NCBI GenBank assembly: GCA_964637485.1
Contig: CAZWUU010000002.1
Span: 1 to 36,330, forward strand
Length of the DNA stretch: 36,330 nucleotides
From: an uncultured Candidatus Saccharibacteria bacterium
Lineage (GTDB): Bacteria; Patescibacteriota; Minisyncoccia; Phycocordibacterales; PALSA-1337
Direction: 5' to 3'
The notes under the pieces are model-generated. The model saw only the letters and a list, made by a program, of their open reading frames with translations. It was not told the origin of the DNA and searched no databases. Made by a program: the position numbers and the translations under genes. Positions 1,349-36,315 of the stretch are shown here, piece by piece; the stretch's first letter is position 1, and each line of letters starts with the position of its first letter.

Positions 1349-1357
1349 TGATATAAT
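1349..1357 (+). promoter_or_regulatory. Extended -10 (TGATATAAT) 6 nt upstream of the pilin ATG
   Basis: TG at 1349-1350, TATAAT at 1352-1357, then GAAAAA, then ATG at 1364. No Shine-Dalgarno sequence. Confidence 0.5.
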
Positions 1358-1363
1358 GAAAAA

Positions 1364-2161
1364 ATGAAGAATCGCGGGTTCACTCTTATTGAACTACTTG
1401 TAGTAGTTTCCATCATAGGAATGCTCGCTTCTATAGTTCTAGCGTCACTTTCTAGCGCCAGAGACAAAGCCAGACTAGCATCTGCGATGCAATTCGCTGG
1501 AAATGTATACAGAGCAAACGGTGATCAGATGATGGTAGGATTTAACTTTGATGAGTCATCTGGAAATGCTCTGGATATTTCAGGCAACAACAGAAACGGT
1601 GTAGTACAAAATGGAGCGTTGAGATCAACCGACGTATATTATGGGACTGGCAGATCCATCCAGTTCGACGGAGTAAACGACTTCGTTGAGATTCCGGCAT
1701 TCAGCCCAGAATTGAATGGCACTGAGGAGACGGTAACCTTGTGGGTAAAACACAACACAGCTCTCAGTGATTATATTTTGATCAACACCGGTGATTGGAG
1801 GAGAAGATTATTCGGTACCACATGGACACTGGTAAACAGTGCGGGCACTTATCACAATATGAATTTGCCCAAAGTTAATGATGGTAACTGGCATCATGTC
1901 GCTTACACAGTAAAAGGTACTGAGGTGAGATCCTATGTCGATGGAAGACTCATAGAATCCAGGATTATGGATGCAGGAATGCCCTCAACAAGTGGTACCT
2001 GGTGGCTTGGAAGAATATGCGCCGGAGCCAGTTGTGATTTGTATTATGCTGGCAAAGCTGACGATCTAAATATATACGGCAGGAGTCTAGTAGGTTATGA
2101 GATAGAGGAACTTTATAGGCAAGGGATTATAGCGCGATTGGCCGACAACACGGGCCAGTGA
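1364..2161 (+). CDS. Type IV pilin-like / pseudopilin with a C-terminal LamG (concanavalin-A-like lectin) domain
   Basis: The N-terminus MKNRG|FTLIELLVVVSIIGMLASIVL is a class III prepilin signal (Gly-1, Phe+1, Glu+5). The C-terminal ~200 aa has LamG-type features (WHHVAYT..., DDLNIYGRSL). Confidence 0.85.
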   Translation: MKNRGFTLIELLVVVSIIGMLASIVLASLSSARDKARLASAMQFAGNVYRANGDQMMVGFNFDESSGNALDISGNNRNGVVQNGALRSTDVYYGTGRSIQFDGVNDFVEIPAFSPELNGTEETVTLWVKHNTALSDYILINTGDWRRRLFGTTWTLVNSAGTYHNMNLPKVNDGNWHHVAYTVKGTEVRSYVDGRLIESRIMDAGMPSTSGTWWLGRICAGASCDLYYAGKADDLNIYGRSLVGYEIEELYRQGIIARLADNTGQ

Positions 2162-2235
2162 TCCGACAAGAATATTTATTCCTTCTATAAAACTTAATCG
2201 TATATGTAACGCTCCTGAAAAAGCGGTAAAACAAA

Positions 2236-2262
2236 ACAGCCCCTAGCAATAGCCGGGACTGT
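2236..2262. terminator. Hairpin between convergent genes; works best as a minus-strand intrinsic terminator
   Basis: ACAGCCCC...CGGGACTGT stem. On the minus strand it is followed by TTTTGTTTTACCGCTTTTT; on the plus strand only by TTT. Confidence 0.55.
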
Positions 2263-2287
2263 TTCGTAAATGATGGTTTGAAACTCC

Positions 2288-2977
2288 TTAGTCCTTCTGC
2301 AACACTGTCTGTGCAGTCTTTTCTATGAGCTTCTGAGCGGTGTCTCTTCCACCCAAACCAAACGCCAATCCAAGAGCAAGCGCGAGGCCTGCAAAGATTG
2401 CGGTGATAAGAGTCTGTATGAGACTCGGCGCTACACCCAAGGTGTAAAGCGCGGTCAATAAAGCAAATATCCAGATAGACCACTTTGTGACTCTTCCGCC
2501 CAATTCGGCTACGTGAAGATGACCGGCCTTGGCACTGGCAACGACGACTTTCTGCATCGTTGTAGCAACGACCGCTCCTATGAGCAATACGAGTACTGCT
2601 ACGATAACCTGAGGCAAGTAGCTGACTACGCTCTGTAAGAATTCATTGACCTGATTCAGTCCCAAGATCTCAAATGAGGCCATGAGAAAAACCACGATCA
2701 CGAACCACTTACACAGAACTCCTACAAACCTTCCAGAGTCCAGATTGTGTCCGGCTCTCTTTACTACATCCTCCATTCCAGCTGATCTGAGTGCTGAATC
2801 GAGTTTGAGAGTCTTGATTATGCTGTCGACCAACTTTTCAACCAAGGCGGCAAGAACCCAACCAATGGCGAATATAATAATAGCGACTATGAGATTTGGC
2901 ACCTGAGCCATGACCCCATACCAAACGTTTTGGAGCGAAGCTGTAAATACCTCTCCCCAATTTTGAATAAATGTCAT
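2288..2977 (-). CDS. Polytopic membrane protein with repeated TM-helix modules (resembles the 'conserved TM helix' / MscS N-terminal-like family)
   Basis: 229-aa ORF with four to five hydrophobic helices separated by short charged amphipathic linkers. No catalytic motif recognised. Confidence 0.6.
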   Translation of the reverse strand: MTFIQNWGEVFTASLQNVWYGVMAQVPNLIVAIIIFAIGWVLAALVEKLVDSIIKTLKLDSALRSAGMEDVVKRAGHNLDSGRFVGVLCKWFVIVVFLMASFEILGLNQVNEFLQSVVSYLPQVIVAVLVLLIGAVVATTMQKVVVASAKAGHLHVAELGGRVTKWSIWIFALLTALYTLGVAPSLIQTLITAIFAGLALALGLAFGLGGRDTAQKLIEKTAQTVLQKD

Positions 2978-3025
2978 AATTATGTTTTAGGCTTATAATT
3001 ACCTTATAACACCTATATTATATCG

Positions 3026-4818: not shown

Positions 4819-7602
4819 TTAGTTGCTAATAGAGTCTGTAATTTCAATGAATTCTTTTATATATCCGACCAACCTCAGTCTTTCCTGCTTCGAAAGTTCC
4901 TTAATATTTATGTGACCTGTTAATTTCAGCAGACTCAGTGATTGCTTTTCAAACTGTCTCAATTTATTTTGTTTTATTAATTTTCTTAGTTTATCGAATT
5001 TCATCAGAACTTTTTTATCTGATGACGTATCCCCTAAAATCTTAATTGAGAATTTTTCAATGACATCGATCATCATATCTGTCGCAAGTACTTCTGCTTG
5101 TTTAGTAGTCGTGGCATTGCCGGGCAGGCCTGTACCATTCATCGTGACATAATCGTCCACACCACCATCTCCGTCATTATCAATGAGCAAGGGATCCAAT
5201 CTGTCTGTCGATATGGAACTCGATGCTATGAGAAGCGGACTAGTAACGATGGTTTCATATAATACCCTCTTCGAATCACTTTCGGTGTTTAACTCCACCT
5301 CATATGAAGCAAAGCCAAACCCTGTGCCTTTTATAGATATGGAATACTCAGAAGATACATCATATGGTAAATCTATGAACGTGTGATATCCACCAGATCC
5401 ATCATCAGTGATCCTAAATCTACTTCCGGGTATATTTTCCTCATACTGCGCCTTCACATATGAATCCGTATTCTCAATACTGAGACTTTCGACCAGCCCC
5501 GTATGTCTTCCATACTTATCATACACGTGTAATTCTACCGGAGAATGCGTACTGACTGCCACAGATGATTTGTTTGACTGTATTTGCTGCTCTGCTCCAA
5601 GCGTAATTACATTGTCAGGTTCTAAGGAGTCATAATCTTTCAATACTATTTTTCTGATAGTATCCTGAACGACACTGGAACCGAGAATATTTGAATGATC
5701 TCTGCGATCCCCGGCTTCAGATAGCTTTGTCAAATTGATAGATGTGGTAGTTCCCGTTCCATATGTAGCACTTGAAGCAACGACAGTCCCATCGCCTTGA
5801 TCGGTATTAACGATTTCATAATACGCTTCTGGTACACACGTCGATTTCATAAGTGCAAAAGAACATTTTTGTCTTGATCCGTATCTCACCGCCGAGGCTG
5901 TAGGATGACTTGTTCCCACTATGCCATATCTATCTATATTGTTAGGCCAAACAAAGTTATTTATTTCCCTGTGTATATTGTCGGCAAGGCCAATCAGCAA
6001 ATCATTGGCAATAATCGGTTTATTGATTTCAGCGGAATCTGGCTGTTTTCTTATACCGAGCTTATCCGCCAAGAATGATTCCTGATCGAAATAACTACTT
6101 ATACTTCGCGCATACGAACCATCATTAATATAAGACGGTGTATCATCAGAAAAAATAATTGTTGGATCAGACACATTTTCGAAGTATTTCTTAGATGGAA
6201 GCAGTTGATACAGACTCGGCATATTCCTGCCCAAGTTTCTGGCAGATGATTCATTCAAGAAAAAACCATTCAAGATATTGTGTCCATTGCCATGAAGCAG
6301 TCCCGCTATCGCCTCCGGCGTCCCCAGATACGGCACCGCCACGGATATGTATGTATCAACAATATTCGAGAGACCCAATTCCTGTAAATGTTTTATGAAG
6401 TATCTAGCAACCAGACCACCATTGCTATGAGCAACAATATTAATTTTCCCAGTAAATGATGAGGACGCCAATTGTATCGCTTCATCCAAGAGACTCTTGG
6501 TCGTAGATGTCGATAATGTATGAATCAATGCGGTAGTAGAGGCCGGCATTCGCCAATCATATGCGTATTCTTTCCAACTATATATATGTCCGTCCTGCAC
6601 AAGCTTGCTCAGATAATTTATGAATGACCCATATATATCTTTTGCTCCGTAAGCTGATCCGATCACTGATCCGACCGTTATATCTGATTTAGTACTTGAA
6701 CCGAAGGAATCCAAATGCATTATTTCCAGGTCAGAACTGCTATAGGGCTCCCACAATTTCTTATCACCGTAATATAGTCTACTGCCTTCAAGACCTGGCA
6801 GGAATAATATACTCGAACAGCAAGACAGTTTGCGTGATCTCGAGACTGGATTGTAATCAAGCCATGGATCATATGTCACATCTCCGACTATTCTATTTAT
6901 ACCTATTCGAGACGGACCAGATTCACTTCCCCACCAATTATCCTTCGCCTCGACCGAACGAAAATTGTAGGTGTTATCGATCGCTCTATTATTATTTATA
7001 AATGAGGAATATGTTACATCAATTTCAGAGGGTATTTGCAATTCTGGCTCTCTCAATCCATATATTCCCGCAGCACCATTGTTTTCAAAAACGGAGTTCC
7101 GAACCTTGGCTTTACTTGCCCAAAGATATAAACCAGATCCGGATGCCCCAGTAACACTCGACGAGGCAAAGTTCAAATCAGACATGTATGCAACAACTGT
7201 TGTTTTCGTAAACCGCGCGTACTTTATGCTCATACTAGCGCGCCTAGAATGTATCTTGAATATTTGTGACACCTGGACCGGCTCTTGTTCTGTGCCATTT
7301 ATATGAAGCGAGGCATCAGGGTCAAGATACAGTCCTATGTCAGAAGCATCACTAGTCTTTCCTACGACAACCCCAGGCTGAATATCCAGTCTGACACCAG
7401 TTCTAACAAAGATATCTTTGTTGAGAAGGTATGGATTACCGTCCTTGGTCCAAACTTGAGAAGTAGAAATATCTGTATCAACGATGGTTCCAGTCTGCTT
7501 TTTTGCAGAATGAACAGGCGACCAATAATAAACGATAGCCACAAAAACAACCATCACGCACGCCGAATACTTTACATATCGGCCAGGATAAAATTTTTGC
7601 AT
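4819..7602 (-). CDS. Secreted or membrane-anchored multidomain protein: parallel beta-helix, LCAT-like alpha/beta-hydrolase (lipase, phospholipase or acyltransferase), beta-sandwich region, Ca-binding-like DNDGDGGVDD motif and a coiled C-terminus
   Basis: N-terminal hydrophobic anchor (VMVVFVAIVYYW). Beta-helix repeats (NSVFENNGAAGIYG, SSFINNN). LCAT-family signatures LFLPGLEGSRLY, YDWR, nucleophile elbow AHSNGG (Ser393, codon 6424-6426), QGDGTV and DHSNI. Confidence 0.8.
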   Translation of the reverse strand: MQKFYPGRYVKYSACVMVVFVAIVYYWSPVHSAKKQTGTIVDTDISTSQVWTKDGNPYLLNKDIFVRTGVRLDIQPGVVVGKTSDASDIGLYLDPDASLHINGTEQEPVQVSQIFKIHSRRASMSIKYARFTKTTVVAYMSDLNFASSSVTGASGSGLYLWASKAKVRNSVFENNGAAGIYGLREPELQIPSEIDVTYSSFINNNRAIDNTYNFRSVEAKDNWWGSESGPSRIGINRIVGDVTYDPWLDYNPVSRSRKLSCCSSILFLPGLEGSRLYYGDKKLWEPYSSSDLEIMHLDSFGSSTKSDITVGSVIGSAYGAKDIYGSFINYLSKLVQDGHIYSWKEYAYDWRMPASTTALIHTLSTSTTKSLLDEAIQLASSSFTGKINIVAHSNGGLVARYFIKHLQELGLSNIVDTYISVAVPYLGTPEAIAGLLHGNGHNILNGFFLNESSARNLGRNMPSLYQLLPSKKYFENVSDPTIIFSDDTPSYINDGSYARSISSYFDQESFLADKLGIRKQPDSAEINKPIIANDLLIGLADNIHREINNFVWPNNIDRYGIVGTSHPTASAVRYGSRQKCSFALMKSTCVPEAYYEIVNTDQGDGTVVASSATYGTGTTTSINLTKLSEAGDRRDHSNILGSSVVQDTIRKIVLKDYDSLEPDNVITLGAEQQIQSNKSSVAVSTHSPVELHVYDKYGRHTGLVESLSIENTDSYVKAQYEENIPGSRFRITDDGSGGYHTFIDLPYDVSSEYSISIKGTGFGFASYEVELNTESDSKRVLYETIVTSPLLIASSSISTDRLDPLLIDNDGDGGVDDYVTMNGTGLPGNATTTKQAEVLATDMMIDVIEKFSIKILGDTSSDKKVLMKFDKLRKLIKQNKLRQFEKQSLSLLKLTGHINIKELSKQERLRLVGYIKEFIEITDSISN

Positions 7603-7686
7603 TATTTCCTATTATGAATAATGCAGTAAATCTAACCGGGCAGATTAAAAATTAGGCAAAACAAATATTAAATTTGTAATAAAGTA

Positions 7687-7794: not shown

Positions 7795-9596
7795 TATATT
7801 TGCTTGTTTAGTAGTGCTCTGGTAGAGGGGCCTACGACTCCGACTGGACTCAGATTATTAGCTTTTTGATACTTAGAAACTGCTTGAGAAGTCAGTACCC
7901 CGAACTTGCCAGTGACAGGACCGCTGTAATGACCGAGTTTCGTTAATAACTTTTGAAGAGCGGTGACATCAGCCCCAGTCATTCCAGATGATATATTCCT
8001 ATAGAAAGTGATTTTATCGCTAGCTTGATTTGATGGTGGTACCGCTTGAGCAACAGAAGCCGATTGGCTCGACCCGGACAAATAATCCGTGCTAACAACA
8101 AAATTGATAGAATTTCTCTTACCTGCCTGATTTGCAATTTCTATTTTGACCGGCAACGAAGATTGTTCATTGATTGTAAGGGTGTAACTGACAACATAAG
8201 GTCCGCTCCCTGCACCGGAAACACTCAATCTCTTGTTATCACCAACGATTACTGTTGGCATATTTACAGCCTGGTTTGTGCTGAAATTGATATTGAGCAT
8301 TGTTCCATTCCCCATGAATTGTCCTGACCCGTTAGAAGAAATGGAGATATTTGTTATCGATGGACTTACATTTTGATTATTGGTAGCGGTATTATTCGCC
8401 GCAGATCCGGAAGAATTTGAATTTGGCGCGACATATACATATATATACCCACACCCACCCGCCACCTGACAAATCTTTATATTTACACCTCCGAAATCTC
8501 GTCCTGTTAACTCCAGATTATTGCCATTTATGTTTGCTGTGACAATATTTGGACTTGGATTTTCCTGCACCGAATAATTTCCCAGGCCATAAATATTTGC
8601 AGTCTTATTTTCACCCACTATCATATTTATTGTACTTGGATTGAAAGTGATTGCATTTGTGTTTTGATTTACTGTGCTTTGATTATTTTGACTTTGCCCG
8701 ACAACCGTCACATCCACCCTGCCACAACTCGTGCTATTCGCCGATGAGGCGCAAACCGAGATTGCAGCCGTTCCAGCCGATAGTGGATTTAGAGTTAGTG
8801 CATTACCATTTAGATAAGCATTCACAACACCTGGGGCTGGATTTGACGATATATAGTAATTACCGGCACCACTCACAGTGATTGTCCTCGGTACACCGAG
8901 GTTCACTGTAACCGAACTTTCGCTGAACGAAAGTGGACCATTTGATCCCGATGAAGATGTATTACCCTGCTGGACGGTCACCAACACAGTAGAACATCCC
9001 ATCGTACCGGCACAAATTCGAATGTTTGAACTTCCGACAGTTAAAGCGTTTATTATTATCTGGTGCCCATTTACATAAGCCTGTACCGACGAGCTGTTGG
9101 AATTTTCCGAAATGTTTAGTCCTGAACTGGCATTTGTCACTACGACACTATTTTGTCCGACAGTCAGACTTAATTGAGACGGGCTGGCAGATAATCCGCC
9201 TGAAATAGAAGAAATGGTAGGCCAGTTTACTATCTGCGATCTCTGTCCATCTACCATGACATATACGGGAGCCTGCGAAGTGATTCCATACTGCGACGAA
9301 TTTACGGATGTCAAAACATATCCGCTTACATTAGTATTTCCCAATGAAATAACACCATACGATCCTCCTGATGGATAATACAGAGTGGCTTGAGTGTTTG
9401 GATTGGCTCCATATATGGTCACTTGAACCGCATCAGTACCAGAAGACGGTTGACCCAAGATCAGATTTGGCACGAGAGCCGCCTGCGCTTGCGATACAAA
9501 AATCATAAAAATAAATGCTGATGTGATCGCAATACCGAAGCACTTCCTCGCTGAGATTATTATGTTCGCTATATTTATTGAATTATTGTTTGTCAT
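7794..9596 (-). CDS. Cell-surface protein: signal anchor, three Cys-containing Ig-like repeats and a C-terminal peptidoglycan-binding (PG_binding_1-like) domain
   Basis: N-terminal anchor and signal (FGIAITSAFIFMIFVSQAQA). Repeats each end in ...C....C..V.V. The C-terminus GMTGADVTALQKLLTKLGHYSGPVTGKFGVLTSQAVSKYQKANNLSPVGVVGPSTRALL is a typical PG-binding repeat. Confidence 0.8.
   Translation of the reverse strand: MTNNNSINIANIIISARKCFGIAITSAFIFMIFVSQAQAALVPNLILGQPSSGTDAVQVTIYGANPNTQATLYYPSGGSYGVISLGNTNVSGYVLTSVNSSQYGITSQAPVYVMVDGQRSQIVNWPTISSISGGLSASPSQLSLTVGQNSVVVTNASSGLNISENSNSSSVQAYVNGHQIIINALTVGSSNIRICAGTMGCSTVLVTVQQGNTSSSGSNGPLSFSESSVTVNLGVPRTITVSGAGNYYISSNPAPGVVNAYLNGNALTLNPLSAGTAAISVCASSANSTSCGRVDVTVVGQSQNNQSTVNQNTNAITFNPSTINMIVGENKTANIYGLGNYSVQENPSPNIVTANINGNNLELTGRDFGGVNIKICQVAGGCGYIYVYVAPNSNSSGSAANNTATNNQNVSPSITNISISSNGSGQFMGNGTMLNINFSTNQAVNMPTVIVGDNKRLSVSGAGSGPYVVSYTLTINEQSSLPVKIEIANQAGKRNSINFVVSTDYLSGSSQSASVAQAVPPSNQASDKITFYRNISSGMTGADVTALQKLLTKLGHYSGPVTGKFGVLTSQAVSKYQKANNLSPVGVVGPSTRALLNKQI
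8430..9191 (-). repeat. Three tandem ~75-aa protein-level repeats (Ig/BIG2-like) within the 600-aa gene
   Basis: aa ~136-208, 221-298 and 316-389 share the pattern L(S/T)V..G....(V/I)......Y.(V/I)..N......A.(V/L)NGN.L.L......G...I..C.......C..V.V.V. Confidence 0.65.
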
Positions 9597-9602
9597 GATC
9601 CA

Positions 9603-9611
9603 ATTATAACA
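9603..9611 (-). promoter_or_regulatory. Extended -10 (TGTTATAAT) 6 nt upstream of the ATG of the 600-aa gene
   Basis: The minus strand reads TGT-TATAAT-TGGATC-ATG (ATG at 9596). It overlaps the U-tract of the upstream terminator. Confidence 0.5.
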
Positions 9612-13026: not shown

Positions 13027-13035
13027 TGATATTAT
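13027..13035 (+). promoter_or_regulatory. Extended -10 (TGATATTAT) 6 nt upstream of the ftsK ATG
   Basis: TG 13027-13028, TATTAT 13030-13035, then TAGCCC, then ATG at 13042. Confidence 0.45.
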
Positions 13036-13041
13036 TAGCCC

Positions 13042-17299: not shown

Positions 17300-17303
17300 A
17301 TTT

Positions 17304-17507: not shown

Positions 17508-17527
17508 GTAATTTGATTTATTTTCTT

Positions 17528-17968: not shown

Positions 17969-17984
17969 GGTTATTGGTTATTTA

Positions 17985-20134: not shown

Positions 20135-20135
20135 A

Positions 20136-21401: not shown

Positions 21402-21407
21402 GAAAAC

Positions 21408-21416
21408 ACTCTAGCA
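21408..21416 (-). promoter_or_regulatory. Extended -10-like TGCTAGAGT 6 nt upstream of the M16 peptidase ATG
   Basis: The minus strand reads TGC-TAGAGT-GTTTTC-ATG (ATG at 21401). Confidence 0.35.
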
Positions 21417-23104: not shown

Positions 23105-23122
23105 ACGGGCATTTTACTCTAA

Positions 23123-25069: not shown

Positions 25070-25075
25070 TGCCAA

Positions 25076-25081
25076 ATTATA
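25076..25081 (-). promoter_or_regulatory. TATAAT 6 nt upstream of ATG 25069
   Basis: The minus strand reads TATAAT-TTGGCA-ATG, directly after the recO stop. Confidence 0.4.
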
Positions 25082-25669
25082 CTACAAATGACTGAATTTA
25101 AGGGCTTTGTTTATTTTTGGATTGATCACACCTATGTCGGCCGAAGCTTTTCTGAGCATCTCTGCTGAGATTTTTTCATTAACGATATATTCAGTTCGAG
25201 GGTCATTTTCTATATAACCCAGAAGGAACAGTATCTTGTAGACTATGACAGATTCTAGACATTTTACATCCTGAGGCGATAAAGACCCACCGAGATCAAG
25301 CATGGATTCCCTGATCACTCGGAAAAGTTCAGGGTGAGACTCCTCGCCCTGCAATAGTCGTCTTAGCAGGCCCGCTACACGACACGCCAGCTCGTATCTA
25401 GGATCATCGACCTTCAATACGGTCTGGTAATCCGCTGGTTGTGCGCTGGTCAATCTGTAGTAGTCTTTACCTCTTACGAGTGAAAAATCTCCGAAAGAAT
25501 AGTCCTGGCAATAATATCTTAGTTTAGATTTTTCAAATCTTATTCCTTGAGCAATCGCGGCCACGAATCCGAGCTTATCGGTAAATATAAACAGCATTTT
25601 GTCGGCCTCGCCTTTTTCCATGGAGCCGACTATAAACCCTGAAGTGTTAATAATCGAGTACATACTCAA
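25082..25669 (-). CDS. recO: DNA repair protein RecO (short form)
   Basis: N-terminal OB-like segment (GFIVGSMEKGEADKMLFIFTDKLGFVAAIAQGIRFEKSKL) and a helical C-terminus with ...LFLLGY. Its start overlaps the ileS stop by 4 nt. Confidence 0.65.
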   Translation of the reverse strand: MSMYSIINTSGFIVGSMEKGEADKMLFIFTDKLGFVAAIAQGIRFEKSKLRYYCQDYSFGDFSLVRGKDYYRLTSAQPADYQTVLKVDDPRYELACRVAGLLRRLLQGEESHPELFRVIRESMLDLGGSLSPQDVKCLESVIVYKILFLLGYIENDPRTEYIVNEKISAEMLRKASADIGVINPKINKALKFSHL

Positions 25670-29046: not shown

Positions 29047-29111
29047 GACGTGACCATTCTAGCGCAATATTTGCCGACTTGCGACTCATATTTTTTTCGA
29101 AGGGATGAAGC

Positions 29112-30830
29112 TTACATTTTATGCGGAACCTTTATTCCGAGTATATCCAGACCGCTTTCGACAATTTCATAGAATTTCCTGGTCAATGCCAGTCTGTATG
29201 AAGACAAACCTTCCGAATCGTCGATGATCGTATGCATAGAATAGTAATTATTATATGCACCGCAAAGGTTTATAAGATAATTAGCGATGAGTTGAGGTGA
29301 TAATTCATTGATTGCTCGACTTGTAATATCATCGAACCTGGAAATCAATCTTTCCACATCATGAACCTGGGAAGGATATCTACTTATCGGCGTCGTTTGA
29401 ACATTCATGCTTTCAGCTTTCTTTAATACGGAACGAGCTCTGACTGCCGTATATTGCAGATACGGTCCAGAATCTCCTTCGAATGAAATAGATTTCGCAG
29501 AATCAAAGATCACATCTCCGCCGACGGACTGACGGAGGATCGTGTATTTGATCGCTGCTATGGCTACGGTTTCACTCACTTGATCTTTTTCCGTATCTGA
29601 CCAATCCCTGTCAGCGACTTTTTTTATGACCATGTTCTTGATATCTCCGATGAGCTCTTCCGCACTTATGATATTCCCCTTCCTCGAAGACATCTTCCCA
29701 TCCCTAAATCTCATCATTCCATGACTTATATGGAGGGTCTTTTCGCCAACTTTTGTATTTATGACTGACAAAACCTTCCTTAGGACTCGGAAATAATCAT
29801 CCTGCTCATTTGCTGTGATGATGATCGACTTCGACAAATCTGGGTACAATTCGAATTTCAGCGTATTCAAACCCAATTCTTTTGTTTCGTAAGTGGGTAT
29901 GCCCTGCGAGGTCACGAAAACTCTGGTATGAAGGCCGTCCTTTTCTCCCTTATAGACAATAGCACCGTCGCTTTTCTCGAAAACGCCAGATTTCGCAAAC
30001 TTATCGACGACTCGTAGACCATCGTGCACGACTTCACTTTCGAAAAAATATTTATCAAACTTTGTACCTAGCAAAGAATATATTCCTTCGAAATAATCGA
30101 GACTCCATTTGCGTCCCATGTCATATATAGCATTGATTTCTTGATCACTACGATCAAATATCTTCATGTTTATGACCGCCATCTCTTTTTTTACAGCCGG
30201 ATCATCCTCGCATTGAGAACCTGTGACATACATATCACCTAGCCATTTTACTTTTTCCACAACCGTTCCCTTCATGGAAGACATATCTACCGAAGTTTTC
30301 TTGTCCTTATTCATGATAGCCCATATGGTTTTTGCCACATGAAGGCCGACATCGCCCTGATAACATGCCCTTATGACCTTATATCCGCCCTTTTCGAACA
30401 ATCTAGCCACAGATTCGCCGATAGCATTCGCCATGAGATGACCAATGTGGAAAATTTTGAACGGATTTGGATCAGTGTACTCGACCATAATCGTCTTTGT
30501 ATTTGAAACAGCCGAAGATTTGGATCTGCTGGTCGAATTATCAATAATGAAATCTAGATAATATCTTGGTTCCATTTTGAAGTTTATAAACCCAGGTCCA
30601 GCAGTCTCTATGGCAGAAACAAGGGAAATATTTTCATTTTGGAGTCTCAGAACGATTTCGTTAGCGACAGCAATTGGATTTTGTTTGGCCTTCTTGGCTA
30701 TTATCATGGCGACATTAGTTGAAAACTCCCCCCGATCATCGATTGGAGGATAGTCGAGAGCTACCTCAACATCATGGAAACCCATATCAAATATAACTTT
30801 CTGTATCTTTTCTTTCAGCAATTGTTTCAT
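29112..30830 (-). CDS. argS: Arginyl-tRNA synthetase
   Basis: 572 aa with an N-terminal Add-1-like domain, HIGH-type FHIGHLMANAIG, and a DALR anticodon-binding C-terminus ending ...HKM. Confidence 0.92.
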   Translation of the reverse strand: MKQLLKEKIQKVIFDMGFHDVEVALDYPPIDDRGEFSTNVAMIIAKKAKQNPIAVANEIVLRLQNENISLVSAIETAGPGFINFKMEPRYYLDFIIDNSTSRSKSSAVSNTKTIMVEYTDPNPFKIFHIGHLMANAIGESVARLFEKGGYKVIRACYQGDVGLHVAKTIWAIMNKDKKTSVDMSSMKGTVVEKVKWLGDMYVTGSQCEDDPAVKKEMAVINMKIFDRSDQEINAIYDMGRKWSLDYFEGIYSLLGTKFDKYFFESEVVHDGLRVVDKFAKSGVFEKSDGAIVYKGEKDGLHTRVFVTSQGIPTYETKELGLNTLKFELYPDLSKSIIITANEQDDYFRVLRKVLSVINTKVGEKTLHISHGMMRFRDGKMSSRKGNIISAEELIGDIKNMVIKKVADRDWSDTEKDQVSETVAIAAIKYTILRQSVGGDVIFDSAKSISFEGDSGPYLQYTAVRARSVLKKAESMNVQTTPISRYPSQVHDVERLISRFDDITSRAINELSPQLIANYLINLCGAYNNYYSMHTIIDDSEGLSSYRLALTRKFYEIVESGLDILGIKVPHKM

Positions 30831-30837
30831 AAGGCGA

Positions 30838-30846
30838 ATTGTAACA
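30838..30846 (-). promoter_or_regulatory. Extended -10 (TGTTACAAT) 7 nt upstream of the argS ATG
   Basis: The minus strand reads TGT-TACAAT-TCGCCTT-ATG (ATG at 30830). Confidence 0.45.
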
Positions 30847-31102: not shown

Positions 31103-32308
31103 TTATTTAATTTGTGCTTTTCTTAGAATCAAGTCGATCTTTCTGGCGATCTTGATCATATCTTTCTCTTTCTTGCCTCTTGTTGTTTCAGCTGCCGTGC
31201 CAAGACGAATACCCGATGGATCCATCGGCGTTCTGCTGTCAAAAGGAATTGCGTTTTTATTCACAATAATACCCTCCTTCTCGAGAACATCACTTGCGAT
31301 CTTACCCGGCACGCCTCCTGCTCCTTTTTCATTTATTACATTACTCATCCAAGTATCAACCAGTATGAGATGTGAATCTGTTCCGCCAGAAATGATCCTC
31401 CATCCGAGATTTTTAAGCTCATTAGCCAGCGTATTTGCATTTTTTACCACCTGCAGTGCATAACGAACAAAACTTTTTGAATCAGCTTCTCTTAGAGCGA
31501 CCGCGATTCCTGCTATCTGATTTATATGCGGACCACCTTGCAAGCCGGGAAATACTGCTTTGTCTATTTTCTTGTCTAATTCTCTAGCATCTTTTTTTAC
31601 AAAAATCATAGCCGATCTTGGTCCGCGTAATGTCTTGTGAGTGGTAGTAGTCACAATATCAGCATGCAAAAACGGTGAGGGATATGCGCCTCCAGCGACC
31701 AAACCAGCGATGTGAGACATGTCTACCATAAGTAGCGACTCGCTCGCATCAGCGATATTTCTCATTTTCTCCCAGTCAATGTGTCTCGGATAGGCTGTAT
31801 AACCGGCCACGATAACATTTGGTTTTTCTTTTATAGCTTGCTCCATCAACTGATCATAATTTAATGTTTCAGTCACAGGATCAATACCGTAAGGAACCTG
31901 GGTCCAAAACTTACCGGTAGCTGACACTTTATGTCCATGGGTCAAATGTCCGCCATGATCGAGAGACATGCCCATTATCTTCCCTCCCTGCGGAACTGTT
32001 GCCGTATATACCGCCAAATTTGCCGGCGATCCAGACAGAGGTTGGACATTCACATGCCATTTTTCCTTATCAAGTTTGAACAATTTTAGAGCTCTTTCGA
32101 TACATAAATTTTCTATCTTATCTACTATTTCATTGCCTCCGTAATAACGCTTCCCTGCATAACCCTCGGCATATTTATTGGTCAATTCTGAACCGAGAGC
32201 TTCCAGGACATCTTTAGAAACATAATTTTCCGAAGCAATCAGATTTATTACCTTCTTTTGTCTGACCTGCTCTGCTTTTATCAGTTTTTTTATTTGCACA
32301 TCTTTCAT
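31103..32308 (-). CDS. glyA: Serine hydroxymethyltransferase
   Basis: SHMT throughout (LIASENYVS, PLP-lysine region TTTTHKTLRGPR). ATG 32308 (MKDVQIKK...) is preferred over the track's 32365, which overlaps dut. Confidence 0.93.
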   Translation of the reverse strand: MKDVQIKKLIKAEQVRQKKVINLIASENYVSKDVLEALGSELTNKYAEGYAGKRYYGGNEIVDKIENLCIERALKLFKLDKEKWHVNVQPLSGSPANLAVYTATVPQGGKIMGMSLDHGGHLTHGHKVSATGKFWTQVPYGIDPVTETLNYDQLMEQAIKEKPNVIVAGYTAYPRHIDWEKMRNIADASESLLMVDMSHIAGLVAGGAYPSPFLHADIVTTTTHKTLRGPRSAMIFVKKDARELDKKIDKAVFPGLQGGPHINQIAGIAVALREADSKSFVRYALQVVKNANTLANELKNLGWRIISGGTDSHLILVDTWMSNVINEKGAGGVPGKIASDVLEKEGIIVNKNAIPFDSRTPMDPSGIRLGTAAETTRGKKEKDMIKIARKIDLILRKAQIK

Positions 32309-32316
32309 GGTTTTTG

Positions 32317-32325
32317 ATTGTAACA
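32317..32325 (-). promoter_or_regulatory. Extended -10 (TGTTACAAT) 8 nt upstream of glyA ATG 32308
   Basis: The minus strand reads TGT-TACAAT-CAAAAACC-ATG, in the dut-glyA gap. Confidence 0.4.
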
Positions 32326-32333: not shown

Positions 32334-32756
32334 TTATTTTCCCGTACTCCCCATGCGACCCCCACCTCTCTTGGTTTCGTTCAATTTATCGACTAGAACT
32401 ATATCTGGATTTTCAATTTTCTGAATTAGCATTTGAGCAACCTTGTGGCCCTTAAGAAAGGTATATTTTTTATTGGATATATTCGCCATCCCTATCATGA
32501 TTTCCCCTCTGTAGCCGGAATCAATAACTCCAGCCAAAACTTTTAAGCCTTCTTTTATAGATATTCCGCTTTTATCCCACACAAGGCCCACATAACCAGA
32601 TGGTATTTCCATCGCAATACCACTCTTTACCGGCCTTATCTCTCCAGGAGCAAAGGTTGTATCTTCCAGAGCAAATAGATCCATACCCGCATCGCCTGGA
32701 TGTGCGTACTTCGGAACAACTGCTTCATTGTGCATTTTCTTGACCTTGATTTTCAT
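32334..32756 (-). CDS. dut: dUTP pyrophosphatase (dUTPase)
   Basis: Trimeric dUTPase motifs (PGDAGMDL, GVIDSGYRGEI, RGGGRMGSTG). ATG 32756 (MKIKVKK...) is preferred over 32792. Confidence 0.9.
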   Translation of the reverse strand: MKIKVKKMHNEAVVPKYAHPGDAGMDLFALEDTTFAPGEIRPVKSGIAMEIPSGYVGLVWDKSGISIKEGLKVLAGVIDSGYRGEIMIGMANISNKKYTFLKGHKVAQMLIQKIENPDIVLVDKLNETKRGGGRMGSTGK

Positions 32757-32773
32757 ATTATTAAAATATACTG

Positions 32774-32782
32774 TGATATAAT
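32774..32782 (+). promoter_or_regulatory. Extended -10 (TGATATAAT) for thyA, back-to-back with the dut -10 (TATATT on the minus strand, 32770-32765)
   Basis: TG 32774-32775 and TATAAT 32777-32782. The thyA ATG at 32808 gives a leader of about 19 nt. Confidence 0.45.
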
Positions 32783-32807
32783 CGCACTGCAATCATTTTT
32801 TTTCAAC

Positions 32808-33719
32808 ATGAAACCATTTAATGAACGAGTTCCAGATCATCAATATAAAGACCTGTTGAGAGACATTTTAGAACACGGAACCAGAACTCCAAGTCAACAA
32901 GGAGTAGACGCTCTTACAATCATTGGTCCTAAGCCTTTTCATTTCAAATTTGATAATGGTGTGCCTCTCATAACAGAGCGCAACATGAACCCCAAGACCT
33001 CCGAAAATTTGCCCGTAACGGTTTGGCAACAGGCAGTCGGGGAAATTTTTGCATTTATAAATGGTGTCAGAACTCAGAAAGAACTAGAAAATTTCGGCTG
33101 CTACTGGTGGCGATCTTGGGTAACAAAGGATAAATGTGAGAAAAGGGGCCTTGAAGAAGGAGATCTGGGTCCTGGATCGTACGGGGCCGCTTTCCATGAC
33201 TTTCCCACCCAGGACGGCAAGGCCTACAATCAATTTCAAAATATTATTGAACAGATAAAGGAAATGCCTCACCTAAGAACTCATTTTATCACTCCCTGGA
33301 TACCTCAATACACCATTCGAGGTAAAGGAAAAAATCAAAAAGTTGTAGTTGCCCCGTGTCACGGTTGGATGCATATAAGGATCATAGAGAACAAGCTGAC
33401 GTTGCACATGTTCCAGAGATCATGTGATGTGCCAGTAGGACTTCCTGCAAACCTTATACAATATTCGGCACTGACACTGGCTCTTGCTCATGTCACAGGG
33501 ACTGAACCATACGAATATGTTCACAGCTTTTCTGACGCACACATATACGTAGATCAGATCGACGCAGTAAAGACCATGATCGAAAGAGAGTCCCGAAGAC
33601 TTCCTACACTGGAGATCAATAGGAGCAAATCAAATATTTTTGATATTAGAAGAGACGACTTTATTTTGACTGACTACGATCCCCACCCTGGAATAAAGAA
33701 GATTCCTGTAGCAATATAA
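32808..33719 (+). CDS. thyA: Thymidylate synthase (ThyA type)
   Basis: Catalytic-Cys region VVAPCHGWMHI, plus DVPVGLPANLIQYSALT and HIYVDQ. The start is taken at MKPFNE; the longer track ORF overlaps dut. Confidence 0.9.
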   Translation: MKPFNERVPDHQYKDLLRDILEHGTRTPSQQGVDALTIIGPKPFHFKFDNGVPLITERNMNPKTSENLPVTVWQQAVGEIFAFINGVRTQKELENFGCYWWRSWVTKDKCEKRGLEEGDLGPGSYGAAFHDFPTQDGKAYNQFQNIIEQIKEMPHLRTHFITPWIPQYTIRGKGKNQKVVVAPCHGWMHIRIIENKLTLHMFQRSCDVPVGLPANLIQYSALTLALAHVTGTEPYEYVHSFSDAHIYVDQIDAVKTMIERESRRLPTLEINRSKSNIFDIRRDDFILTDYDPHPGIKKIPVAI

Positions 33720-34238: not shown

Positions 34239-35099
34239 CTATTTTGCTTTTTTAACAAAAATAATTTTAACTCCCTTACTTTTTAGTATTCTCTTCCCAT
34301 CCAACACTCCATAACCACCTGAATAATATAGTTTTGAAATACCTGAATATGCAATCAATTTTGCACACGGCGGACAAGGAAAGGTGGTTACATACATAGA
34401 CGTTCCTTTCAAAGAAACACCCTTCAGGGCCGCCTCAGCTATGAGGCCAGCTTCAGCATGCATGGCGGTCGATAATTCCAGATTAACTCCTTTACTAAAA
34501 TCACACCTAGGATCGCCATCTTGATATGGCATATGTTCCGAAGGTACGTGTCGATTGTGAGAAATCAGTACTATCTCATCGCCTTGAACTATTGCAGCTC
34601 CGACACGTCTCCACCAATCACTACTTTTGTTTGCCTCCTCTTTTAGCAAGGCAATGATTTTTTGATCGGAATCCTTATCAGAGATAGTCTGATCAATTTC
34701 TACAGCTGTTTCCTCGGTTGATTTGTGTTTATCCCAACGCAAAAAAACATCGTCGAACACCACCTTATTCTTCGTAAAATAATTATTGCTGATCTCACGC
34801 ATGATTTCATCATTCGGCAAAACAACATCTGTATGTGACTTAGCCAGATCGATCAGATTCTTCTTTGAAGCAACCACTATATTGTCGAAAATGTTCCAAC
34901 CGATTATTGCCTGACGCACCGTTTCTGGTTTTAAGGCTCTCAAATCCTTTGTTAATGCTTTAAAATCTGCCGAGACATCAGATCCTATCAGGTAAAGACT
35001 CTTAATATCAGAATGTTTATCGAAAAATTTCTTATATCCATCGTGCAAAACCGGCACATATGCAACGACGGCCTTATTCTTTGCTTTTGTTTTTTGCAT
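34239..35099 (-). CDS. dCMP (CMP/dCMP-type) deaminase with an uncharacterised ~140-aa N-terminal domain
   Basis: The C-terminal half has zinc motifs HAEAGLI and PCPPCAKLI. The N-terminal half is unrecognised. The start is ambiguous (35099, or 35126/35129), and every option overlaps the upstream gene's end. Confidence 0.8.
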   Translation of the reverse strand: MQKTKAKNKAVVAYVPVLHDGYKKFFDKHSDIKSLYLIGSDVSADFKALTKDLRALKPETVRQAIIGWNIFDNIVVASKKNLIDLAKSHTDVVLPNDEIMREISNNYFTKNKVVFDDVFLRWDKHKSTEETAVEIDQTISDKDSDQKIIALLKEEANKSSDWWRRVGAAIVQGDEIVLISHNRHVPSEHMPYQDGDPRCDFSKGVNLELSTAMHAEAGLIAEAALKGVSLKGTSMYVTTFPCPPCAKLIAYSGISKLYYSGGYGVLDGKRILKSKGVKIIFVKKAK

Positions 35100-35715
35100 G
35101 TCTCGTTCCACTTCCTGTGATGGCATCATTTATGAGAACTGATAACTTGGGCAAAATGGCTTTTTCGAAACGTTTAGCTAGTTTGAGTTGTAACAATCTT
35201 ATTTTGGCACTGGTAGAAGTGGTAGCCATGGGATCCAAAACCTTCACACGACCGCACAATTTCTGCATTTCTTTCATCTTCTTAATGCCGTATTTCTCGA
35301 GAGTTTCCTTGGTAATGATGAGCGTATCCGGTCTAACCGACTTTATCAATTGCCACTGAGGCATATTATGTTCCTTCAGTGTAACGATATCCACAGATCT
35401 CATATGAGTGACCATTTCAAGACGTTCTTCTTGTGGTACGAGTGGCCTATCGGGGCCCTTTCTCATTCTTACCTTCTTATCACTATCAACACCCACAATC
35501 AAAATATCTCCGTGTTTTTTGGCCTCCTCGAAATATCTAGCGTGCCCGATATGAACCATGTCATACGTACCCTGAGTCAGAACTATTCTAAGACCTAGGC
35601 CTTTTAGGTGATCCGAGATCTCCTTTAATCTTCTGTAATCAGGAACAAATCTGTCCTTGAAATTGGAGTTGATTGAGAAAATACCTCCATTAGTCACAAA
35701 ACCTTTCGAAGTCAT
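35074..35715 (-). CDS. Cytidylyltransferase-family nucleotidyltransferase (RfaE domain II / TagD-like)
   Basis: VLTQGTYDMVHIGHARYFEEAKKHGDILIVGVDSD (HxGH motif) and a C-terminal ...TSTSAKIR (ISSTxxR-like). Confidence 0.75.
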   Translation of the reverse strand: MTSKGFVTNGGIFSINSNFKDRFVPDYRRLKEISDHLKGLGLRIVLTQGTYDMVHIGHARYFEEAKKHGDILIVGVDSDKKVRMRKGPDRPLVPQEERLEMVTHMRSVDIVTLKEHNMPQWQLIKSVRPDTLIITKETLEKYGIKKMKEMQKLCGRVKVLDPMATTSTSAKIRLLQLKLAKRFEKAILPKLSVLINDAITGSGTRHAKNKSKE

Positions 35716-35722
35716 AAAAACT

Positions 35723-35728
35723 AGTATA
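35723..35728 (-). promoter_or_regulatory. TATACT 7 nt upstream of the cytidylyltransferase ATG
   Basis: The minus strand reads TATACT-AGTTTTT-ATG (ATG at 35715). Confidence 0.4.
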
Positions 35729-35780
35729 ATCGCAGGAGCGACAAACGCAACGATGACATGTGCACAGTTTCGTATTGAAA

Positions 35781-35789
35781 TGCTATCAT
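35781..35789 (+). promoter_or_regulatory. Extended -10-like TGCTATCAT 7 nt upstream of the DHFR-like ATG
   Basis: TG 35781-35782, TATCAT 35784-35789, then TGTCGCT, then ATG at 35797. Confidence 0.4.
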
Positions 35790-35796
35790 TGTCGCT

Positions 35797-36315
35797 ATGA
35801 ATTGCTTTATCATTTCCTGCCTTACCGCAGACGGTTATATAGGCAAAAATTCATCGCATGCTGCCCACTGGACGAGCAAGGAAGACAAGAAGAGGTTCAT
35901 CGAGATCACAAAGAGGGCTGGAGTCATGGTCATGGGTCTCAACACATGGCTAACTTTTGGCGGTAAACCACTCAAGGATAGATTGCATATAGTTTACTCC
36001 CCCACCCCCCTCGATAATCTGCCTGACAAGGTCGAGTATACGAACAAAAGTCCGAAAGACTTACTGATTGAGCTAGAAGGGCGCGGGTTTAAAGAGGTGG
36101 CGATTTGTGGCGGATCACAGATATATACGATGTTCATGAAGTCGGGTCTGGTCAATAAGCTTTACTTGACTATCGAACCCATATTATTCGGAGACGGCGT
36201 GCGTCTGTTCAAGGAGGATTTAAATTATCGACTGAAATTGGACAAAGCAGAACATACTCCCGGAGGAACAGCCATGCTGGATTATTCGGTTGATAATTCT
36301 GCGCCCCTCGTATAG
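35797..36315 (+). CDS. folA: Dihydrofolate reductase-like protein (DHFR / RibD C-terminal family)
   Basis: Collinear with DHFR: VMVMGLNTWLTFGGKPLKDRLHIVYS (compare E. coli [24 protein letters not shown]) and ICGGSQIYTMF...KLYLT. The symbol is tentative. Confidence 0.6.
   Translation: MNCFIISCLTADGYIGKNSSHAAHWTSKEDKKRFIEITKRAGVMVMGLNTWLTFGGKPLKDRLHIVYSPTPLDNLPDKVEYTNKSPKDLLIELEGRGFKEVAICGGSQIYTMFMKSGLVNKLYLTIEPILFGDGVRLFKEDLNYRLKLDKAEHTPGGTAMLDYSVDNSAPLV

What the first reader, a model, noticed from the sequence alone, without database searches (positions are those of the whole stretch)
1349..35799. Recurrent -10 element 6-9 nt upstream of ATG and no Shine-Dalgarno: apparently widespread leaderless or near-leaderless expression
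Twelve genes that look like the first in their transcription unit have a TAnnnT hexamer at a fixed short distance from the ATG, often preceded by TGn. Given as ATG position, element, spacing:
- Pilin 1364, TGATATAAT, 6 nt.
- Lipase 7602, CATAAT, 8 nt.
- 600-aa surface protein 9596, TGTTATAAT, 6 nt.
- ftsK 13042, TGATATTAT, 6 nt.
- M16 peptidase 21401, TGCTAGAGT, 6 nt.
- 650-aa protein 25069, TATAAT, 6 nt.
- ileS 29046, TAGAAT, 9 nt.
- argS 30830, TGTTACAAT, 7 nt.
- glyA 32308, TGTTACAAT, 8 nt.
- dut 32756, TATATT, 8 nt.
- Cytidylyltransferase 35715, TATACT, 7 nt.
- DHFR-like 35797, TGCTATCAT, 7 nt.

A transcription start about 7 nt after the -10 would fall on or next to the start codon. In addition, none of the internal genes I inspected has a GGAGG-like element within 15 nt of its start; the upstream sequence is just A/T-rich. 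Those genes are rplL, the 15298 ORF, efp, recA, rpsR, ssb, metG and the HIT gene.

Leaderless initiation is well known in Actinobacteria, Deinococcus and archaea. Here it appears to be the default promoter and start architecture. That matters for gene calling, because three ORF-track starts in this window look too long.
Basis: seen in the sequence. Interest (0 to 1): 0.65.

Follow-up and report, generated by a model that had tools for sequence, protein, structure and literature searches.

The report
Leaderless genes in SD-free Paceibacteria genome
In this tiny uncultured bacterium (Paceibacterota, candidate phyla radiation) about a third of all genes, and roughly half of operon-first genes, have a promoter -10 box ending 6-7 bases before the start codon. 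This implies mRNAs with no leader, in a lineage that shows no ribosome-binding sites and whose close relatives lack the matching 16S rRNA tail.

Summary
One hexamer, upstream of the lipase, is CATAAT rather than TAnnnT.

- **Position of the -10 box.** Across the 635-kb genome, TAnnnT ends exactly 6 nt before 18% of crude gene starts and 7 nt before 7.5%. Other offsets give about 3% (p = 2e-50).
- **Promoter, not a translation signal.** The aligned sites give TGnTAtaaT with a weak TTG -35 at 17 nt and a pyrimidine at -1. The same motif sits 7-13 nt before 15 of 37 tRNA genes.
- **No Shine-Dalgarno system.** SD motifs are not enriched (9.2% against 9.2% in the control). Five 16S rRNAs from the same genus end GGAAUAUUUCAA instead of GAUCACCUCCUUA. 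Ribosomal protein uL1 is absent from the whole order.
- **Internal genes.** They are packed with gaps of -4 or +1 nt and have A-rich, G-poor upstream sequence.

So operon heads are most likely made as leaderless or near-leaderless mRNAs, and downstream genes start by coupling or SD-independent initiation.

This is the known bacterial leaderless architecture (GeneMarkS-2 "group C"), but with no SD/anti-SD system at all. The anti-SD loss in Parcubacteria is published. I found no paper linking it to leaderless mRNAs.

The parts
1349..1366 (+). Extended -10 TGATATAAT, 6 nt, then the ATG of the prepilin-type gene (N_methyl + Laminin_G_3 domains)
   Evidence: PWM 10.7 at d=6
7600..7616 (-). CATAAT, 8 nt, then the ATG of the LCAT/lipase-like 927-aa gene. 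This is the weakest of the 12 sites and is not strictly TAnnnT.
   Evidence: (PWM -0.1)
9594..9611 (-). TGTTATAAT, 6 nt, then the ATG of the 600-aa PG_binding_1 protein. A terminator-like hairpin lies just upstream.
   Evidence: PWM 11.4
13027..13044 (+). TGATATTAT, 6 nt, then the ATG of ftsK
   Evidence: PWM 10.6
20132..20146 (-). TAAAAT, 6 nt, then the ATG of metG, which lies 1 nt after the M16 gene. Either an internal promoter or a chance match.
   Evidence: (PWM 6.8)
21399..21416 (-). TGCTAGAGT, 6 nt, then the ATG of the M16 peptidase
   Evidence: PWM 8.3
23102..23116 (-). TAAAAT, 6 nt, then the ATG of a class II aminoacyl-tRNA synthetase. The promoter lies in the 18-nt gap and the 3' end of the upstream gene.
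   Evidence: (PWM 7.4)
25067..25081 (-). TATAAT, 6 nt, then the ATG at 25069 of the 648-aa surface protein. The ORF-track TTG at 25075 is 2 codons too long.
   Evidence: PWM 10.7
29044..29061 (-). gcTAGAAT, 9 nt, then the ATG of ileS. This probably gives a leader of 2-3 nt.
   Evidence: PWM 8.6 at d=9
30828..30846 (-). TGTTACAAT, 7 nt, then the ATG of argS. The Arg_tRNA_synt_N domain starts at residue 2.
32306..32325 (-). TGTTACAAT, 8 nt, then the ATG at 32308 of glyA. The true start is not the GTG at 32365.
   Evidence: SHMT profile begins at residue 2; 19 orthologues all start MKDxQ
32754..32770 (-). TATATT at 8 nt (or the overlapping TATTTT at 6 nt), then the ATG at 32756 of dut. The ORF-track TTG at 32792 is too long.
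32774..32810 (+). TGATATAAT, 25 nt, then the ATG at 32808 of thyA. This is a leadered, SD-less operon head, back to back with the dut promoter. The ORF-track start at 32700 is too long.
   Evidence: (Thymidylat_synt begins at residue 47 of the long ORF)
35713..35728 (-). TATACT, 7 nt, then the ATG of the cytidylyltransferase-like gene
35781..35799 (+). TGCTATCAT, 7 nt, then the ATG of the DHFR/RibD_C-like gene
   Evidence: PWM 8.4
25661..25668 (-). TGAgtATG: the ileS stop codon, 2 nt, then the recO ATG at 25663. An example of SD-less translational coupling.
   Evidence: RecO_N begins at residue 6 of the TTG-start ORF; read from the sequence
16241..18488 (-). rpsF-ssb-rpsR-recA run with gaps of 16, 20 and 4 nt. 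None has GGAGG within 15 nt of its start. Upstream sequence is A-rich.

Best explanation
The recurrent TAnnnT elements are sigma-70-type extended -10 promoters, with consensus TGnTAtaaT and only a weak TTG -35.

**Transcription.** The promoters are placed so that RNA polymerase starts at, or 1-2 nt before, the A of the start codon. This gives leaderless mRNAs for about one third of all genes and roughly half or more of operon-first genes.

**Translation of operon heads.** These mRNAs would be translated by direct recognition of the 5'-terminal AUG or GUG by ribosome-bound initiator tRNA.

**Translation of the remaining genes.** These do not use Shine-Dalgarno pairing either. Internal cistrons are packed at -4, -1, +1 and up to about 10 nt from the preceding stop codon, which fits termination-reinitiation coupling. 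Leadered heads have A-rich, G-poor leaders with no SD.

**Ribosome.** Its 16S rRNA, as seen in congeners, has lost the CCUCC anti-SD.

**Shown:**
- motif position and its statistics;
- promoter identity, from the tRNA genes and the TG/-35 features;
- absence of SD enrichment;
- absence of the anti-SD in the genus and order;
- gene packing.

**Inferred:**
- the exact transcription start;
- the mode of ribosome recruitment;
- that this genome's own, unassembled 16S resembles its congeners'.
For: **The -10 is fixed relative to the start codon.**
- Genome-wide peak at d=6 (18.1%) and d=7 (7.5%) against a 3% background, p = 2e-50.
- In a PWM scan of 321 operon-first candidates it is the only positional mode: 52 and 29 hits against about 3 per position.
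- The peak survives motifs that cannot be an in-frame stop, and counts that need no gene models.
- E. coli gives 1.0x with the same pipeline. The D. radiodurans plasmid MP1, from a known leaderless-rich organism, gives 6.8x.

**The motif looks like a promoter.**
- The unconstrained positions reproduce the sigma-70 consensus. TG lies one base upstream in 51% of sites. TTG lies at a 16-18 nt spacer in 19%, against 5% in a shifted control (p = 1e-5). C or T is preferred at -1.
- The same matrix hits 15 of 37 tRNA genes 7-13 nt before the mature 5' end, where 1.5 are expected.
- The housekeeping RpoD-like sigma keeps the region 3.0 motif VHMVE. The role of its H and E in reading TG is from established knowledge of E. 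coli sigma-70.

**The signal follows the rules for leaderless mRNAs.**
- It occurs at first ATG (29.6%) and first GTG (26%) but not at first TTG (3.7%, equal to background).
- It depends on gene context. It is found at 58-63% of genes after an 11-60 nt gap and 46% of divergent genes, but only 7-16% of overlapping or tightly packed genes.

**There is no SD system.**
- No SD enrichment.
- 16S rRNAs of 5 congeners and 6 other families of the order lack CCUCC.
- uL1 is absent in 31 of 31 genomes of the order. This matches the anti-SD-less, uL1-less Parcubacteria of Tsurumaki et al. 2022 (PMC9297842).

**The architecture recurs in relatives.**
- glyA orthologues share the start MKDxQ. 6 of 19 have TGCTAcaAT-N6-ATG although the flanking sequence is not conserved.
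- Leaderless status is partly conserved between orthologues within the genus and order: 41-47% against 16-23%, p about 0.02-0.03.
- Congeners have 16-27 copies of TGNTAWAAT-N6-ATG against 0-2 at N13.
Against: - No transcript 5' ends were examined.
- The genome's own 16S is not in the assembly.
- Gene starts come from a crude ORF caller. It misses small genes (rpsR, for example) and produces some false leaderless calls (recO at 25621, for example).
- About half of apparent operon heads lack the signature.
- Several listed sites have 8-9 nt spacing, which implies short leaders rather than none.
- A bS1-like protein with four S1 domains is present, so SD-independent leadered initiation is also available.
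Confidence: 0.85

Rival explanations
1. The mRNAs are near-leaderless rather than truly leaderless. The promoters are real, but RNA polymerase in this lineage starts 5-6 nt after the -10 box. Most transcripts would then carry a 1-3 nt leader, and initiation would tolerate or need it.
For: A shoulder of sites lies at d=7-9. In the window, glyA, dut, lipase and ileS have 8-9 nt. tRNA promoters peak at 8-10 nt from the mature 5' end. glyA orthologues vary between 6 and 9 nt.
Against: The mode is sharply at d=6. With the canonical 7-nt distance from the -10 box to the start, this puts +1 on the A of ATG. The Y(-1)/A(+1) preference fits a start on the A. d=5 is depleted.
Confidence: 0.1
2. The A/T-rich hexamer is a translation signal on a longer mRNA rather than a promoter. 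It could be an S1-binding or AU-rich enhancer, or a new SD that pairs with the altered 16S tail.
For: - The region upstream of non-leaderless genes is also A-rich, with AATAA and AAATA enriched.
- A bS1-like protein is present.
- GAAATA and TGAAAT, which are complementary to the AUUUCA of the congeneric 16S tail, are weakly enriched before non-leaderless starts: 19 against 5 and 8 against 1.
Against: - The motif carries TG at exactly -15/-14 and a TTG at a 17-nt spacer.
- It occurs before untranslated tRNA genes.
- It is rare before tightly coupled genes.
- It is not complementary to the 16S tail.
- The tail-complement signal is about what A-richness predicts and covers at most 5% of genes.
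Confidence: 0.03
3. The signal is a statistical or annotation artefact. AT-rich intergenic DNA, in-frame stop codons (TAA/TAG at -12) before the first ATG, or mis-called starts would create an apparent TAnnnT peak.
For: The in-frame stop bias is real. It alone produced an apparent d=6 TAnnnT peak in anti-SD-positive relatives (G040, G055). That peak vanished with TAYNNT and TGNTANNNT.
Against: In this genome the peak persists with the stop-free motifs (5.3x and 34x) and with gene-model-free spacing controls (38 against 0-5). It is absent at in-frame d=3, 9 and 12 and in E. coli. Composition predicts 3.2%, against 18% observed.
Confidence: 0.02

Closest known systems
GeneMarkS-2 'group C' bacterial genomes (Actinobacteria such as Mycobacterium tuberculosis and Streptomyces; Deinococcus-Thermus)
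   Same: A Pribnow box lies 6-8 nt upstream of the start codon of first genes in operons. It affects 25-50% of operons. Only AUG and GUG starts are used (bioRxiv 10.1101/193490). The D. radiodurans MP1 plasmid gives the same kind of peak in my pipeline.
   Different: Group C genomes keep an SD-type RBS for the other genes and an intact anti-SD. Here SD motifs are at background and the anti-SD is absent in the genus and order. The promoters are of the TG-extended -10 type with little -35. This is a different phylum (Patescibacteria), AT-rich, with a 0.6-Mb genome.
Anti-SD-lacking, uL1-lacking subgroup of Parcubacteria (Tsurumaki, Saito, Tomita, Kanai 2022, RNA 28:1041; PMC9297842)
   Same: This is the same lineage-level trait. 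16S rRNAs of congeners end GGAAUAUUUCAA in place of GAUCACCUCCUUA, and uL1 is absent in all 31 genomes of the order.
   Different: That paper reports the rRNA and r-protein losses and says SD helices probably do not form. It does not describe what the mRNAs do and does not contain the word leaderless. The gene-start architecture is what is added here.
Bacteroidota/Flavobacteriia (GeneMarkS-2 'group B'): SD-independent initiation on A-rich leaders
   Same: There is no SD usage. Sequence upstream of non-leaderless starts is A-rich and G-poor.
   Different: Bacteroidota keep the anti-SD, which is sequestered in their ribosomes. They have one non-SD motif before all genes and are not rich in leaderless mRNAs. 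Here a promoter box occupies that position and is tied to operon heads.
Haloarchaea (Haloferax volcanii) and mammalian mitochondria
   Same: Most mRNAs are leaderless and initiation works without SD pairing (H. volcanii: PMC3986360, listed). That mitochondrial 12S rRNA lacks an anti-SD is from general knowledge.
   Different: These use archaeal TATA/BRE promoters about 26 nt upstream, or mitochondrial polycistron processing. Here it is a bacterial sigma-70 -10 box at 6-7 nt. Haloarchaea keep the anti-SD.

Membership tests
Bacterial leaderless-rich genome (GeneMarkS-2 group C) | -10 (Pribnow) box localised 6-8 nt upstream of start codons of first genes in operons | tested here: met
   The peak is at d=6-7 genome-wide. 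11 of 29 window genes have it.
Bacterial leaderless-rich genome (GeneMarkS-2 group C) | A substantial fraction (about 25-50%) of operons is affected | tested here: met
   The share is 46-63% of genes that are divergent or follow an 11-60 nt gap, and about 34% of all genes. This is a crude estimate.
Bacterial leaderless-rich genome (GeneMarkS-2 group C) | Remaining genes carry an SD-type RBS | tested here: not met
   The SD core occurs at 9.2%, equal to the 9.2% control. G is depleted at -12..-1.
Bacterial leaderless-rich genome (GeneMarkS-2 group C) | Mapped transcription starts coincide with the start codon | not testable with these tools
No RNA data could be reached.
Anti-SD-less Parcubacteria (Tsurumaki et al. 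2022) | 16S rRNA 3' tail lacks CCUCC(U) | tested here: inconclusive
   There is no 16S in this assembly. All 5 congeners with a 16S 3' end, and 6 other families of the order, lack it. For this genome it is therefore inferred, not seen.
Anti-SD-less Parcubacteria (Tsurumaki et al. 2022) | Ribosomal protein uL1 absent | tested here: met
   PF00687 has no match in this genome or in 30 relatives. It is found in all 14 control genomes.
Sigma-70 extended -10 promoter | TGn immediately upstream of TATAAT-like hexamer; weak or dispensable -35; sigma region 3.0 H/E retained | tested here: met
   TGn is present in 51% of sites. A TTG -35 is present in only 19%. The RpoD-like sigma has TIRVPVHMVE.
Bacteroidota-type non-SD RBS (group B) | One non-SD motif at fixed distance before all genes, internal genes included, with anti-SD retained | tested here: not met
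   The positional motif is tied to operon heads and to tRNA genes. The anti-SD is absent in the genus. Only generic A-richness is seen before internal genes.

The most novel reading that the evidence does not exclude
In this order of Paceibacteria, SD/anti-SD pairing may have been eliminated completely, which would leave a mitochondrion-like initiation system in a cellular bacterium. Operon heads would be read only as 5'-AUG or GUG leaderless mRNAs, or from A-rich unstructured leaders. Internal cistrons would be read only by re-initiation of terminating ribosomes.

The order of events would be a shift to leaderless and SD-free mRNAs first, with decay of the anti-SD afterwards. Two observations point that way:
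- anti-SD-positive relatives in the class already show little SD use;
- the strength of the leaderless signature does not track anti-SD status.
Probability: 0.4. Interest if true: 0.7.

Novelty: new variant of a known kind. Interest (0 to 1): 0.5.

Why it matters
**Gene calling.** Start-codon prediction tuned to SD motifs mis-places starts in these genomes. Four ORF-track starts in this window are too long: the 650-aa protein, glyA, dut and thyA. The -10-N6-ATG rule gives a cheap and accurate start and operon-head predictor for a large uncultured clade.

**Biology.** This looks like a natural bacterial lineage that runs translation initiation without any SD/anti-SD interaction. It supplies the mRNA side of the published anti-SD and uL1 loss in Parcubacteria.

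It makes two questions testable:
- how internal cistrons and leadered mRNAs are selected when the ribosome has no anti-SD;
- whether leaderless initiation is an ancestral or a reductive state in the candidate phyla radiation.

**Applications.** Promoters for heterologous expression of CPR genes, or for genetic tools in cultivable Patescibacteria, should be designed as TGnTATAAT-N6-ATG fusions rather than with an RBS.

Tried and rejected
- **Anti-SD loss against leaderless abundance.** A first sample suggested a link within the class: 4 anti-SD-negative genomes gave 4-5x TAYNNT enrichment and 3 anti-SD-positive genomes gave about 1x. A 35-genome pattern count did not bear this out. The own order gave 193 against 10 (N6 against N13). 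Anti-SD-positive genomes of the class gave 81 against 26. Anti-SD-negative genomes of other orders gave 154 against 42. The two traits are therefore not tightly coupled. Some genomes from other classes that do have an anti-SD (G104, G125, G092, G114) also show a leaderless signal.
- **Apparent peaks in relatives.** The plain TAnnnT d=6 peaks seen in relatives were partly an in-frame stop-codon artefact. One search corrected this.
- **A co-evolved SD.** I tested for an alternative SD complementary to the new 16S tail. The signal was weak and largely explained by A-richness.
- **Strong SD 6-mers.** A search near any of the first six candidate starts returned mostly sites inside coding sequence and was not informative.
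- **Transcript evidence.** Exact-protein look-ups gave nothing for the pilin. For rplL they gave four contigs whose run type (DNA or RNA) is not given and that carry no information on transcript ends.
- **Literature.** Five full-text searches found no paper that links leaderless mRNAs to CPR/Patescibacteria. The paper with TSS data for Nanosynbacter lyticus TM7x (PMID 35975994) is not held.
- **Leaderless tRNAs as in Nanoarchaeum.** I considered whether tRNA promoters so close to the mature 5' end could mean loss of RNase P. This is rejected, because an RNase P RNA is present at C22:5696-6033 and in 18 of 20 relatives.
- **Rfam.** The window holds no riboswitch, T-box or leader family, only the 5' part of the 23S rRNA.

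Full report
**What the window is.** The window is contig C2 of a 635-kb, 56-contig, 42.6% GC assembly that reads well in code 11. RecA relatives are MAGs labelled Candidatus Paceibacterota, Parcubacteria or Patescibacteria. These include a prepilin-type protein, an LCAT-like lipase, ftsK, an M16 peptidase, metG, ileS, argS, glyA, dut, thyA, a cytidylyltransferase and a DHFR-like gene. Also confirmed are rplJ-rplL and the run rpsF-ssb-rpsR-recA-efp. rpsR is a 67-aa ORF at 17304-17507.

**The observation in the window.** Every one of the 12 sites is present with the stated hexamer and spacing. The lipase element is CATAAT, which is not strictly TAnnnT, and it scores poorly. Two further genes have the same arrangement: the class II aaRS at 23104 and metG at 20134. 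With corrected starts, 11 of 29 window genes have TAnnnT at 6-7 nt, where about 6% is expected (p = 5e-7).

I called 625 genes with a crude self-trained ORF caller.
- TAnnnT ends 6 nt before 18.1% of longest-ORF starts and 7 nt before 7.5%. Other offsets give 2-4%, internal ATGs give 1-2%, and composition predicts 3.2% (p = 2e-50 for d=6).
- An in-frame TAA or TAG at -12 could fake a d=6 peak. The stop-free motif TAYNNT is still 5.3-fold enriched, and TGNTANNNT is 34-fold enriched.
- A count that needs no gene models gives 38 copies of TGNTAWAAT-N6-ATG, against 0-5 at spacings 12, 15 and 20.
- The same pipeline gives no peak in 150 kb of E. coli K-12, where SD is 34.5% against 7.6% in the control. 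It gives a 6.8-fold peak on the Deinococcus radiodurans MP1 plasmid, from a known leaderless-rich organism.

**Is it a promoter or a translation signal?** Four lines of evidence point to a promoter.
- Aligning the 212 sites gives TGnTAtaaT at the unconstrained positions. TG is present in 51% of sites. There is a weak TTG at a 16-18 nt spacer (19%, against 5% in a shifted control, p = 1e-5), and C or T is preferred at -1.
- The same matrix hits 15 of 37 tRNA genes 7-13 nt upstream of the mature 5' end, where 1.5 are expected. The motif therefore works on untranslated genes.
- It occurs at first ATG (29.6%) and first GTG (26%) but not at first TTG (3.7%, equal to background). That is the known start-codon rule for leaderless mRNAs.
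- It is found at 58-63% of genes that follow an 11-60 nt same-strand gap and at 46% of divergent genes. It is found at only 7-16% of overlapping or tightly packed genes.

A PWM scan of 321 candidate operon heads shows no second positional mode further upstream.

The genome encodes an RpoD-like sigma with the region 3.0 motif VHMVE. In E. coli sigma-70 the H and E of that motif read the TG; this last point is from established knowledge.

With the canonical 7-nt distance from the -10 box to the start, d=6 puts +1 on the A of ATG.

**No Shine-Dalgarno system.**
- SD cores occur in 9.2% of -20..-4 regions and in 9.2% of control regions. G is depleted just upstream of starts.
- The assembly has no 16S.
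- Five congeners end ...GCUGCUCGUG-GAAUAUUUCAA where E. coli has GAUCACCUCCUUA. Six other families of the order also lack CCUCC.
- Within the class, about 10 of 27 sampled 16S rRNAs keep the canonical tail. All 22 sampled from other classes of the phylum keep it.
- uL1 is missing in all 31 genomes of the order. A bS1-like protein with four S1 domains is present.
- This matches the anti-SD-less, uL1-less Parcubacteria subgroup of Tsurumaki et al. 2022 (PMC9297842). That paper does not discuss leaderless mRNAs.

**The other genes.** Same-strand gaps peak at -4 (ATGA), -1 and +1 nt. Of 414 same-strand pairs, 189 are no more than 10 nt apart. The ileS stop and recO start, TGAgtATG, are an example. 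Upstream of non-leaderless starts the sequence is A-rich (50-60% A at -7..-2) and G-poor, and is enriched in AATAA, AAATA and ATAAA. Some operon heads are leadered without an SD. thyA has TGATATAAT 25 nt before its true ATG at 32808.

**Comparative evidence.**
- All 19 congeneric glyA orthologues begin MKDxQ(I/V)KKL, which fixes the start at 32308. Six carry TGCTAcaAT-N6-ATG and three have 8-9 nt spacing, within otherwise unconserved upstream DNA.
- Leaderless status is partly conserved between orthologues in the genus and order (41-47% against 16-23%, p about 0.02-0.03). It is not conserved at greater distances.
- Pattern counts in 35 genomes show the signature is strongest in the own order (193 at N6 against 10 at N13). 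It is weaker elsewhere in the class, at about 3-4 fold, whether or not the anti-SD is present. Anti-SD loss and leaderless abundance are therefore associated in this order but are not a strict pair.

**Literature and novelty.**
- Leaderless architecture with a -10 box at 6-8 nt is the defining feature of GeneMarkS-2 group C. That group consists mainly of Actinobacteria and Deinococcus-Thermus, and the preprint does not mention CPR.
- Full-text searches found no paper that joins leaderless mRNAs to CPR/Patescibacteria. A paper with TSS data for Nanosynbacter lyticus TM7x exists but is not held.
- Earlier AI notes of this scan report the same pattern in many Patescibacteria genomes, and in another contig of this genome. 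They agree with my results but are not independent evidence.

**Verdict.** This is a group-C-like leaderless architecture in a new phylum. The variant feature is that no SD/anti-SD system accompanies it.

**Limits.** The genome's own 16S is missing. Gene starts are crude.

Noticed in passing
genome-wide (e.g. C6 tRNA-Ser 4651-4738, C23 tRNA-Arg 1616-1688, C20 tRNA-Arg 649-722): 15 of 37 tRNA genes have an extended -10 box ending 7-13 nt (peak 8-10) before the mature 5' end. Primary tRNA transcripts would then carry 5' leaders of only about 1-4 nt. An RNase P RNA is nevertheless present (C22:5696-6033, below the Rfam gathering score but full length).
   Followed up: partly
window 32757-32807: The dut and thyA promoters sit back to back in a 51-nt divergent gap. 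thyA really starts at the ATG at 32808 (MKPFNERV...), not at 32700. It has TGATATAAT 25 nt upstream, which gives an SD-less, U-rich leader of about 18 nt.
   Followed up: yes
window 25666-29046 (-): ileS carries a complete histidine-phosphatase (His_Phos_1) domain inserted at residues 491-670 (Pfam E = 1e-29). An earlier first-reader note also flagged this.
   Followed up: no
window 1-981 (-): This is the 5' 856 positions of a 23S rRNA gene. No 16S gene lies upstream of it, because the pilin gene follows at 1364. The rRNA genes are therefore unlinked, and the assembly has no 16S at all.
   Followed up: partly
whole order (31 genomes): Ribosomal protein uL1 (PF00687) is undetectable in this genome and in 30 relatives. 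rplJ-rplL in the window stand alone, without rplK-rplA upstream.
   Followed up: yes
genome-wide, -22..-2 of non-leaderless starts: GAAATA (19 against 5) and TGAAAT (8 against 1) are mildly enriched. Both are complementary to the AUUUCA that replaces the anti-SD in congeneric 16S tails. The UUCAA block of that tail is conserved across the order. The enrichment is probably A-richness, but this is not settled.
   Followed up: partly
window 30868-31086: The GC-rich, hairpin-dense, non-coding island between argS and glyA matches no Rfam family at gathering threshold.
   Followed up: no
window 17304-17507 (-): rpsR (67 aa) is missed by ORF lists with an 80-aa minimum. With it, recA follows at a 4-nt gap and is an internal, coupled gene rather than an operon head.
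   Followed up: yes
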